From Eledone cirrhosa (lineage: Eukaryota), in contig OZ024742.1 of the NCBI GenBank assembly GCA_964016885.1, forward strand, positions 194,990,001 to 195,054,000: a DNA stretch of 64,000 nt, given 5' to 3'. Position numbers and translations under genes: made by a program. Below are positions 61,354-64,000 of this stretch, piece after piece; positions within the stretch are counted from its first letter, which is position 1; every line of letters starts with the position of its first letter. The notes beneath the pieces are model-generated. The model ran no database searches. It was not told the origin of the DNA and saw nothing but the letters and a program-made list of their open reading frames with translations.

Positions 61354-64000
61354 TGTAAGCATGCATGCATACGTACATACATATATGTATACAGACGTAC
61401 AGTAGCATGCACATATATATATATATATACATATATACATACATATGCATACAGGTACACATACATATATGCACGTATCAGTTTAGCGGCGCTAACGTCG
61501 CTTTGTTCGTTTGTAAACAAACTGAACAGCCTGAATTTATGCCATACGGTGTTAAGGCAACCACGTCACCTTTTTGTTCAACACTGACACAGGAACGATG
61601 TACTAGTTTCAAGCTTGTTAGCTATCATCAGCACCGTTTACCCATCTGCCAGATAGTTGAACGTTCGAAAGTATATACTTTCCTTATGAAAATTAACGGC
61701 TGAGCAGCCTAATTTGCATATTGAGTGAGTTAAATCGGTCAGGCATACCGAAAACGATAAATTGAAACAAAATGAAAACGAAATTTCATTTCTCACTCTT
61801 AGTATGGCACTTACTTAAATGTAAGCATGCATGCATACGTACATACATATATGTATACAGACGTACAGTAGCATGCACATATATATATATATATACATAT
61901 ATACATACATATGCATACAGGTACACATACATATATGCACGTATCAGTTTAGCGGCGCTAACGTCGCTTTGTTCGTTTGTAAACAAACTGAACAGCCTGA
62001 ATTTATGCCATACGGTGTTAAGGCAACCACGTCACCTTTTTGTTCAACACTGACACAGGAACGATGTACTAGTTTCAAGCTTGTTAGCTATCATCAGCAC
62101 CGTTTACCCATCTGCCAGATAGTTGAACGTTCAAAAGTATATACTTTCCTTATGAAAATTAACGGCTGAGCAGCCTAATTTGCATATTGAGTGAGTTAAA
62201 TCGGTCAGGCATACCGAAAACGATAAATTGAAACAAAATGAAAACGAAATTTCATTTCTCACTCTTAGTATGGCACTTACTTAAATGTAAGTATGCATGT
62301 ATACGTACATACATACATGTATACAGACGTACAGTAGCATGCACATATATATATATATATACACATATACATACATATGCATACAGGTACACATACATAT
62401 ATGCACGTATCAGTTTAGCGGCGCTAACGTCGCTTTGTTCGTTTGTAAACAAACTGAACAGCCTGAATTTATGCCATACGGTGTTAAGGCAACCACGTCA
62501 CCTTTTTGTTCAACACTGACACAGGAACGATGTACTAGTTTCAAGCTTGTTAGCTATCATCAGCACCGTTTACCCATCTGCCAGATAGTTGAACGTTCAA
62601 AAGTATATACTTTCCTTATGAAAATTAACGGCTGAGCAGCCTAATTTGCATATTGAGTGAGTTAAATCGGTCAGGCATACCGAAAACGATAAATTGAAAC
62701 AAAATGAAAACGAAATTTCATTTCTCACTCTTAGTATGGCACTTACTTAAATGTAAGTATGCATGTATACGTACATACATATATGTATACAGACGTACAG
62801 TAGCATGCACATATATATATATATATACATATATACATACATATGCATACAGGTACACATACATATATGCACGTATCAGTTTAGCGGCGCTAACGTCGCT
62901 TTGTTCGTTTGTAAACAAACTGAACAGCCTGAATTTATGCCATACGGTGTTAAGGCAACCACGTCACCTTTTTGTTCAACACTGACACAGGAACGATGTA
63001 CTAGTTTCAAGCTTGTTAGCTATCATCAGCACCGTTTACCCATCTGCCAGATAGTTGAACGTTCAAAAGTATATACTTTCCTTATGAAAATTAACGGCTG
63101 AGCAGCCTAATTTGCATATTGAGTGAGTTAAATCGGTCAGGCATACCGAAAACGATAAATTGAAACAAAATGAAAACGAAATTTCATTTCTCACTCTTAG
63201 TATGGCACTTACTTAAATGTAAGCATGCATGCATACGTACATACATATATGTATACAGACGTACAGTAGCATGCACATATATATATATATATACATATAT
63301 ACATACATATGCATACAGGTACACATACATATATGCACGTATCAGTTTAGCGGCGCTAACGTCGCTTTGTTCGTTTGTAAACAAACTGAACAGCCTGAAT
63401 TTATGCCATACGGTGTTAAGGCAACCACGTCACCTTTTTGTTCAACACTGACACAGGAACGATGTACTAGTTTCAAGCTTGTTAGCTATCATCAGCACCG
63501 TTTACCCATCTGCCAGATAGTTGAACGTTCAAAAGTATATACTTTCCTTATGAAAATTAACGGCTGAGCAGCCTAATTTGCATATTGAGTGAGTTAAATC
63601 GGTCAGGCATACCGAAAACGATAAATTGAAACAAAATGAAAACGAAATTTCATTTCTCACTCTTAGTATGGCACTTACTTAAATGTAAGTATGCATGTAT
63701 ACGTACATACATACATGTATACAGACGTACAGTAGCATGCACATATATATATATATATACACATATACATACATATGCATACAGGTACACATACATATAT
63801 GCACGTATCAGTTTAGCGGCGCTAACGTCGCTTTGTTCGTTTGTAAACAAACTGAACAGCCTGAATTTATGCCATACGGTGTTAAGGCAACCACGTCACC
63901 TTTTTGTTCAACACTGACACAGGAACGATGTACTAGTTTCAAGCTTGTTAGCTATCATCAGCACCGTTTACCCATCTGCCAGATAGTTGAACGTTCAAAA
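61354..64000 (-). repeat. Tandem array of a 466-bp hammerhead-containing unit (retrozyme-like array B), at least 5.6 units, running off the window end
   Basis: ORFs recur every 466 bp (61365, 61831, 62297, 62763, 63229); left end abuts (TA)n. Confidence 0.95.
61594..61638 (-). ncRNA. Type I hammerhead ribozyme, array B (repeats at 62060, 62526, 62992, 63458, 63924)
   Basis: AACGGUG-CUGAUGA-UAGCU(AACA)AGCUU-GAAA-CUAG-UA^CAUCGUU: 7-bp stem I with one GU pair, same AACA loop and ACUAGU stem III as array A, GUA triplet; U-U at the base of stem II. Confidence 0.85.

What the first reader, a model, noticed from the sequence alone, without database searches (positions are those of the whole stretch)
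61354..64000. Second array (466 bp) is a diverged homolog of array A with covarying structure
Seen: the sequences differ widely, yet unit length (466 vs 467) and module order are conserved. Stem I changes by compensatory substitution (AAUAUUG/CAAUAUU vs AACGGUG/CAUCGUU), as do stem II (GUUGU/ACAAC vs AGCU/AGCU) and the closing helix (ttctccagaa/ttctggagaa vs gttcaac/gttgaac). The AACA loop, the ACUAGU stem III and the core are invariant. Inference: selection acts on RNA structure and size, so these are two subfamilies of a replicating RNA element rather than inert satellites.
Basis: partly seen in the sequence, partly recalled or inferred. Interest (0 to 1): 0.88.

Follow-up and report, generated by a model that had tools for sequence, protein, structure and literature searches.

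The report
Ribozyme retroelement keeps fold, Penelope-pasted
Both repeat arrays are diverged branches of one abundant non-coding jumping element that keeps a predicted RNA fold, including a likely self-cutting hammerhead, and their back-to-back insertions with two- and three-unit rhythms suggest that a Penelope-type enzyme copies small RNA circles round and round into the genome.

Summary
The homology is real. Arrays A (467 bp) and B (466 bp) are 62% identical and belong, with an older lineage C, to one family with at least 23,578 type I hammerhead cores in this genome. The named compensatory pairs are present. Covariation extends beyond the ribozyme, best in a helix whose strands lie about 190 nt apart, but statistics are modest (p mostly 0.01-0.13 under the strict null). 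Two claims fail: the AACA loop varies, and unit length is not fixed (A 465-470, B 427-516, C 419-482). Nothing supports RNA-to-RNA replication.

Insertions, including both arrays, are head-to-head arms in (TA)n. They end at two fixed internal sites 59-69 nt apart, not at the cleavage site. This is the Penelope-like "tail" footprint, and an intact autonomous Penelope-like family here shows it too. Array B repeats three unit variants in strict period 3 in both arms, and another locus does so in period 2, which suggests circular trimer and dimer templates. Cleavage, expression, circles and the partner enzyme are untested.

Verdict: a non-LTR retrozyme, new variant. This scan already noted the same footprint on other hammerhead repeats.

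The parts
61350..64000 (-). Array B, left (inverted) arm: 5 full 466-nt units plus partial ones; the arm continues to about window-equivalent 64291, then an opposite arm of 8.4 units runs to about 68211 (outside the window, L031)
61252..61354 (.). (TA)n target; the arm ends here at the short 3' site (phase 251 after the cleavage site)
62058..62109 (-). Type I hammerhead of one B unit (repeats every 466 bp): bulged stem I, U.U-based stem II with AACA loop, palindromic ACUAGU stem III; predicted cut after GUA at 62067 (also 61601, 62533, 62999, 63465, 63931)
   Evidence: cleavage inferred from the hammerhead consensus, not tested
62042..62128 (-). Extended stem closing the hammerhead (GTTCAAC at 62122-62128 with GTTGAAC at 62042-62048)
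   Evidence: (z -3.07)
61802..62013 (-). Long-range helix, GTATGGCA (62006-62013) with TGCCATAC (61802-61809); three of six counted pairs compensated across lineages; its 3' strand begins about 6 nt after the short 3' site
61831..61946 (-). TA/TG-rich rod with inner hairpin; carries the length variation of lineage B and two of the four period-3 marker sites (the other two lie at or just past its 3' end)
61757..61816 (-). 'Tail': 59 nt between the short (61816, phase 251) and long (61757, phase 310) 3' end sites, with a hairpin; inferred reverse-transcription start sites
   Evidence: interpretation from PMC11167929
61685..61720 (-). Most conserved non-ribozyme block: hairpin whose 5' arm holds ATGCAAAT (octamer label recalled); role unknown
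   Evidence: not matched in U1 promoters
9085..10610 (-). Array A, left arm (467-nt units), ending at its short site (phase 234) in (TA)n 8900-9086
10612..11574 (+). Array A, right arm, ending at its long site (phase 302-303, 69-nt tail) in (TA)n 11576-12022
18515..22020 (+). Broken, 5'-truncated copy of a young autonomous Penelope-like family (RT plus GIY-YIG; 775-aa open frames elsewhere) with the same insertion footprint; candidate enzyme donor, not shown. The end coordinate is approximate.

Best explanation
Arrays A and B are two diverged lineages of one non-coding tandem element with a conserved predicted RNA fold and a predicted type I hammerhead (a non-LTR retrozyme), likely inserted by a Penelope-like retrotransposon enzyme that likely copies circular monomer, dimer or trimer RNA. 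Shown: homology, compensated pairs, head-to-head arms in (TA)n, two fixed internal 3' ends, scattered inner junctions, and period-2 and period-3 arrays. Inferred steps: (1) arrays are transcribed; (2) the weak palindromic stem III cleaves best as a double hammerhead, so cutting is incomplete and gives monomers and short multimers; (3) a host ligase closes them; (4) a Penelope-like RT/GIY-YIG protein recognises the structured tail domain, cuts (TA)n, and primes from both DNA ends at the two sites flanking the tail; (5) each cDNA runs round the template, through the cleavage site, for under 1 to about 30 units; (6) the two cDNA ends join head to head by microhomology or fold-back. Lineages that keep the fold keep spreading, which is the selection on structure.
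For: Footprint: 18 of 21 A loci have one short end (229-234) and one long end (301-303); 7 of 8 inverted B loci with both ends resolved, among 15 fetched, have 246-251 and 310-313. These features (inverted truncated copy, one-sided tail, microsatellite target) define PLE insertions (10.1101/2021.04.23.441226), and the tail lies between two internal RT starts in vitro (PMC11167929). The autonomous 775-aa family shows the same layout, with a 64-nt tail and TTTA at the short site, in 8 of 12 loci. At most 1 or 2 of 84 inner arm ends fall at the cleavage site (42 junctions). Period 3 is exact in 7+5 full units of L031 with 0-1 private variants. Period 2 is exact in 15+2 units of L216+L217, whose two types differ at four sites plus length. 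In both loci both outer ends lie on the same unit type. Fold: circular MFE z -9.5 (A) and -7.6 (B) against 25 shuffles, with the same helix order; 20 of 71 named pairs have double changes against 2-7 when partners are slid; the hammerhead strand folds better than its complement in 18 of 18 units. Known retrozymes make linear, circular and multimeric RNA (PMC7229834).
Against: No RNA evidence of any kind. The covariation test that avoids circularity (fold one lineage, map onto another) gives p 0.014-0.40 under the strict null for whole units and 0.04-0.54 outside the ribozyme; it is stronger (0.0003-0.18) only under the looser null. About a quarter to 30% of A-B mapped pairs are broken. No homology to either PLE family tested beyond one 12-mer in the tail of B (p 0.001 in 1000 shuffles, not corrected; A p 0.52). 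The 775-aa family has no canonical hammerhead. L033 has two short ends. Period is irregular in L036, L097+L098 and L209. The left arm of L031 breaks register at its last piece (X,X). No parent locus for the trimer or dimer was found among 20 marker hits, which no model predicts neatly. Eight of nine predicted Xenopus retrozymes did not cleave in vitro, and hammerhead cleavage was dispensable for PLE insertion in vitro. Loci were picked from top hits, favouring young and multi-hit ones.
Confidence: 0.65

Rival explanations
1. Same family and same Penelope-like enzyme, but the template is a long uncleaved linear transcript of a parent array; periods and long arms come from unequal exchange in DNA and are then copied.
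For: Unprocessed RNA was the main substrate for a PLE in vitro. Long arrays exist as possible parents (about 30 units in L097+L098; about 90 marker hits over 51 kb at C3:12.27 Mb). It also predicts no arm ends at the cleavage site.
Against: Needs parents of at least 9 and 16 strictly periodic units; none carries the marker among 20 hits. In-place amplification does not explain matching types and order in both arms with few private changes. It does not explain why the hammerhead is kept by compensation.
Confidence: 0.2
2. The paired changes come from DNA-level repair of near-palindromes (template switching during copying), not from selection on an RNA fold.
For: The unit is rich in palindromes, the complementary strand also folds well (z -7.3 and -5.0), and two junctions are symmetric fold-backs at palindromes (L031, L111).
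Against: The 8-bp helix with strands about 190 nt apart has three compensated pairs, split on different branches. Many lineage-wide one-sided changes are G.U on the hammerhead strand (a structure predicted on that strand). The unpaired catalytic core is conserved.
Confidence: 0.07
3. The units are terminal repeats (pLTRs) of an autonomous Penelope-like element, left as truncated copies and expanded in place as satellites.
For: Xenopus retrozymes resemble PLE pLTRs; the footprint is that of PLEs.
Against: No RT/GIY-YIG element sharing sequence with the units in the two PLE families tested; both arms consist only of units; sets of near-identical young copies at many loci. Other PLE families were not examined.
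Confidence: 0.05
4. A viroid-like RNA that replicates RNA to RNA and is only occasionally reverse-transcribed.
For: Size and strongly self-paired circle resemble viroid-like RNAs.
Against: A canonical hammerhead in one polarity only; over 23,000 genomic cores and a retrotransposon footprint explain the spread.
Confidence: 0.03

Closest known systems
Metazoan non-LTR retrozymes (Cervera and de la Pena 2020, PMC7229834; review PMC7761336; passages read)
   Same: Tandem non-coding units with one type I hammerhead, GC under 50%, self-paired circle, weak palindromic stem III; the U.U at the base of stem II in B recalls axolotl HHR_Amex2; two hammerhead families per genome were also seen in mussel and axolotl.
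   Different: Unit slightly above the 150-450 bp quoted. The passages read describe no inverted arms, fixed ends, tail or periodic arrays, and state that no motif points to the partner retrotransposon. Cleavage and circles were shown there and are untested here.
Vertebrate non-LTR retrozymes as PLE derivatives (Li, Clavereau, Pollet 2026, 10.64898/2026.07.22.740005; parts 1-3 of 5 read, through Discussion)
   Same: Proposes PLE origin and mobilisation; lengths 51-972 bp.
   Different: Evidence there is co-occurrence and pLTR homology, with arrays attributed to local amplification; here it is the insertion footprint, no pLTR homology was found, and the arrays look made at insertion. Supplements were not seen.
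Endonuclease-bearing Penelope-like elements (10.1101/2021.04.23.441226 and PMC3846280, passages; PMC11167929, parts 1-2 of 4)
   Same: Head-to-head inverted truncated copy, one-sided tail, microsatellite or AT-rich targets, two internal RT starts downstream of a hammerhead, palindromes at some junctions.
   Different: No ORF; tails of 59-69 nt rather than 30-40; arms of up to about 30 identical short units.
Newt satellite 2 (hammerhead satellite; snRNA-type promoter recalled from memory, not read)
   Same: Tandem hammerhead repeat with palindromic stem III needing dimers.
   Different: The conserved ATGCAAAT here has no counterpart in eight U1 promoters of this genome.

Membership tests
Non-LTR retrozyme | Tandem units of a few hundred bp, each with a type I hammerhead | tested here: met
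   by core consensus and stems, Rfam 0 hits
Non-LTR retrozyme | No protein-coding frame, GC under 50% | tested here: met
   only a TA-derived frame overlaps; GC 0.37
Non-LTR retrozyme | No LTR, primer-binding site or polypurine tract | not tested
   no LTR layout is seen, but PBS and PPT were not searched
Non-LTR retrozyme | Stable, highly self-paired circular fold | tested here: met
   prediction only
Non-LTR retrozyme | Self-cleavage as monomer or dimer | not testable with these tools
   needs in vitro transcription
Non-LTR retrozyme | Expressed as linear and circular RNA | tested here: inconclusive
   no RNA holder listed
Non-LTR retrozyme | Target-site duplication longer than 4 bp when present | tested here: inconclusive
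   flanks are (TA)n on both sides, which hides a duplication
Autonomous Penelope-like element | RT plus GIY-YIG open frame | tested here: not met
PLE-mobilised non-autonomous element | Inverted 5'-truncated copy, one-sided tail, microsatellite target | tested here: met
PLE-mobilised non-autonomous element | Sequence shared with the pLTR of an autonomous partner | tested here: inconclusive
   two PLE families tested, only a 12-mer in one tail; other families not examined
Viroid-like RNA replicon | Ribozymes in both polarities and no DNA form | tested here: not met
   (canonical hammerhead pattern only)
Satellite with snRNA-type promoter | Shares distal and proximal elements with host snRNA genes | tested here: not met
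   0 of 8 U1 upstream regions hold the octamer or align above shuffles; U2 and U6 not examined

The most novel reading that the evidence does not exclude
The genome records rolling-circle reverse transcription of retrozyme RNA circles, including dimer and trimer circles, by a Penelope-like enzyme that primes both target ends at two fixed sites on one unit. The covarying long-range helix and tail hairpin are the cis signal the enzyme reads, so most of the 466-nt circle, not only the ribozyme, is under structural selection.
Probability: 0.4. Interest if true: 0.78.

Novelty: new variant of a known kind. Interest (0 to 1): 0.58.

Why it matters
How animal retrozymes enter genomes is open: circular templates and a Penelope-like partner are proposed but not shown, and a 2020 review states that no motif identifies the partner. 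This family supplies exact predicted priming sites, a covarying helix beside them, three lineages as natural variants, periodic arrays that predict dimer and trimer circles, and an intact candidate enzyme in the same genome. Together with the existing in vitro PLE assay, that makes the model directly testable. The class itself is known, and the scan has seen the footprint on other repeats.

Tried and rejected
Rfam at gathering thresholds: 0 hits. snRNA-type promoter: 0 of 8 U1 upstream regions have the octamer or similarity above shuffles. Expression: no RNA holder listed; four runs guessed to be RNA laid nothing; this is no evidence either way. Two runs under other organism codes (X22, X23) each hold one near-identical low-depth contig; their kind is unknown and I draw nothing from them. 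Partner by homology: the 775-aa family gave only low-complexity hits and one 12-mer; a second, older PLE family gave no hammerhead in 30 of 30 downstream regions and only low-complexity hits, and a short motif shared with the B/C short site proved internal to it. Parent array for the trimer: not found among 20 marker hits, all six loci examined (with L031). The C/T variation at phase 400 was dropped from the period analysis: at window 63065 the other base makes up 99.7% of depth in run X19, so it is likely an assembly error. The 310-nt hammerhead family (L196) has the same footprint but looks unrelated by eye (not aligned), so it was not used as an outgroup. One stem III pair was mis-set on a gap column (column 133-138) and is uninformative. 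L066 duplicates L058 and was dropped; two junction calls (L035, L038) are doubtful picks. R-scape and LocARNA were not available.

Full report
Observation. The window holds a 466-bp array at 61353-64000 and a 467-bp array A at 9085-11574. Each unit has one CUGAUGA...GAAA core followed by CUAG and UH. Rfam reports nothing at its thresholds, so the type I hammerhead call is by consensus and stems. The host genome G000 is 3.0 Gb; I did not establish the species. An exact core pattern with the ACUAGU stem matches 23,578 places against 1 for the reversed control, an undercount because lineage C often has CUGACGA. A pattern specific to lineage C matches 6,975 places.

Homology and structure. Eighteen full units from lineages A (4), B (7) and C (7), chosen as cluster representatives, were aligned by sequence alone. 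Identity is A-B 62%, A-C 61%, B-C 82%. Segment identity runs 44-71% along the whole unit. Folded as circles, A and B give -153.6 and -147.0 kcal/mol (z -9.5 and -7.6 against 25 shuffles) with the same order of about eleven helices; the complementary strands also fold well, though less well in 18 of 18 units. On 71 named pairs, 95% of cells pair and 20 pairs show double changes, against 2-7 for slid partners; that structure was derived from these sequences and the shuffle control ignores kinship. A fairer test folds one lineage and maps its pairs onto another. With changed positions fixed and only the new bases redrawn, whole-unit p values for retained double changes are 0.014-0.04 in five of seven comparisons and 0.13 and 0.40 in two. 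Outside the ribozyme they are 0.04-0.39, and outside ribozyme and TA rod 0.06-0.54. With positions also shuffled, whole-unit p is 0.0003-0.035. The comparisons are not independent. The clearest single case is a helix joining columns 200-205 to 440-445, with three compensated pairs (U-A 9/C-G 9; G-C 12/A-U 4; U-A 8/A-U 7). So structure is conserved beyond the core, with moderate statistical weight.

What does not hold. Loop 2 is AACA, AAUA, AAGA or AAUG. The basal pair of stem II is U.U in B and most C. Unit length is 465-470 in A, 427-516 in B and 419-482 in C (per-locus medians, 19, 17 and 9 loci); B varies in its internal TA rod. The 466/467 match of the two youngest groups is a sum of unequal segments and is probably mostly chance, though a loose size range remains.

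Insertion anatomy. Array B continues 4.2 kb past the window and inverts (L031), as array A does at 10611. With phase 1 set at the base after the predicted cut, outer ends are fixed. In A, 18 of 21 loci have one end at 229-234 and one at 301-303; two are single arms and one is irregular. In B, 8 of 15 loci are inverted with both ends resolved, 7 with one short (246-251) and one long (310-313) end and one with two short ends; the resolved ends of the other seven also fall at about 251 or 305-310. Nearly all resolved outer ends abut (TA)n. These loci were picked from top hits and favour young multi-hit ones, so the inversion rate is not unbiased. Inner junctions are scattered: of 42, 31 overlap by 0 or more bases and 15 of those by 3 or more (about 6% expected, though BLAST extension inflates overlaps); two are symmetric fold-backs at palindromes; at most 1-2 of 84 arm ends fall at the cleavage site. 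An inverted truncated copy, a one-sided tail and microsatellite targets are the PLE signature (passages, passages), and the tail is the stretch between two internal RT start sites of a purified PLE protein that cuts and extends both strands. The long-range covarying helix begins about 6 nt past the short site, and a second long-range helix encloses the tail hairpin and the long site.

Candidate enzyme. A broken PLE at about 18515-22020 belongs to a young family with many 775-aa open frames at 97-99% identity (GIY-YIG over the Pfam cut-off, RVT_1 just under; its linker zinc finger suggests Neptune or Nematis, by the description). In 8 of 12 fetched loci it has inverted arms with one short end at TTTA and one end 64 nt longer, in (TA)n. 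It has no canonical hammerhead and no homology to the units apart from a 12-mer shared with the tail of B. It shows that the machinery is present and active, not that it is the partner. Earlier notes point to Naiad-type elements here as well (unchecked).

Template. In L031 three unit types recur in exact period 3 in both arms (7 and 5 full units, 0 and 1 private variants). A search for one marker found 20 places, among them L216+L217, where two types differing at four sites and in length alternate through 15 and 2 full units, with about six private changes outside the unlisted TA tract. In each locus both outer ends lie on the same type (chance about 1 in 6 together). Of 12 loci with four or more units in an arm, one was period 3, one strictly and three partly period 2, four uniform or nearly so, and three irregular. 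The types diverged well before the arrays were laid down, which fits copying round a dimer or trimer circle. A long periodic linear parent would also do; none was found, but neither was a short parent. The left arm of L031 breaks register at its last piece, which fits fold-back copying of the first arm followed by annealing to a short second cDNA (inference). Multimeric and circular retrozyme RNAs, and dimer-dependent cleavage of weak stem III hammerheads, are known from axolotl.

Comparison and novelty. This meets the sequence-level definition of a non-LTR retrozyme; cleavage and circular RNA are untested, and no RNA run was available. Five searches listed no paper describing this footprint or periodic arrays for retrozymes; I read only the passages and parts named, saw no supplements, and subscription papers are not covered. 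My PLE reading was noted before I looked at earlier findings. The scan had reached the same footprint reading for other hammerhead repeats, including a 310-nt family in this genome, whose inverted arms and two ends I confirmed at L196. What this finding adds is cross-lineage covariation around the priming sites and the period-2 and period-3 arrays.

Verdict. Observation partly confirmed; interpretation partly supported. New variant of a known kind; interest 0.58; best explanation 0.65, with the PLE mobilisation step firmer (about 0.85) than the circular template step.

Noticed in passing
window 5273-5669 and 59920-60165: A different hammerhead-bearing non-coding element (GAAA-TATA-TA stem III region); the first copy is an inverted pair between (TA)n runs with one arm about 95 nt longer, the same footprint.
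   Followed up: partly
window 4295-4322, 8391-8418, 12079-12110, 13252-13283, 32280-32304, 49279-49304: Further CUGANGA...GAAA motifs that look like PLE-type hammerheads; not examined.
   Followed up: no
window 7040-7459, 25991-27324, 37480-40412: Fragments of other Penelope-like elements, one of them in inverted arrangement; the family at 26980-27300 has about 49,600 candidates at about 90% identity.
   Followed up: partly
window 49887-53210: 1107-aa open frame with RVT_1 and zf-RVT, a non-LTR retrotransposon with a restriction-like end (end motif judged from recall).
   Followed up: partly
window 42484-44052 (-): Frame with a CUB domain after a Ser/Thr-rich stretch, probably a host exon.
   Followed up: no
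window 63065 and equivalent places: The assembly base disagrees with 99.7% of depth in run X19; the read base completes a perfect 16-bp palindrome. Likely a recurrent assembly error at a CpG.
   Followed up: yes
G000:C3:12272007-12323207: A degenerate array of about 90 or more B-type units over 51 kb, with irregular spacing of about 470-610 bp.
   Followed up: partly
L219:3211-4222: An A-type arm appears inserted at the internal TA tract of a B-type copy, so one lineage may target the other.
   Followed up: no
L164:4851-6000: The full 4689-bp unit of the 775-aa PLE family has a long coding-like stretch upstream of the RT frame, possibly an ORF1 joined by a frameshift.
   Followed up: no
L116-L123, about -60 and -250 from the U1 start: U1 upstream regions share short motifs (AAATCAGT-like and ATTAYYTCCCTTG-like) and lack an octamer, possibly lineage-specific snRNA promoter elements.
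   Followed up: no
alignment A2 columns 29-39: A and B share TAATTTTCATA while C, otherwise closer to B, has TAATATGCATA; convergence or exchange between lineages.
   Followed up: no
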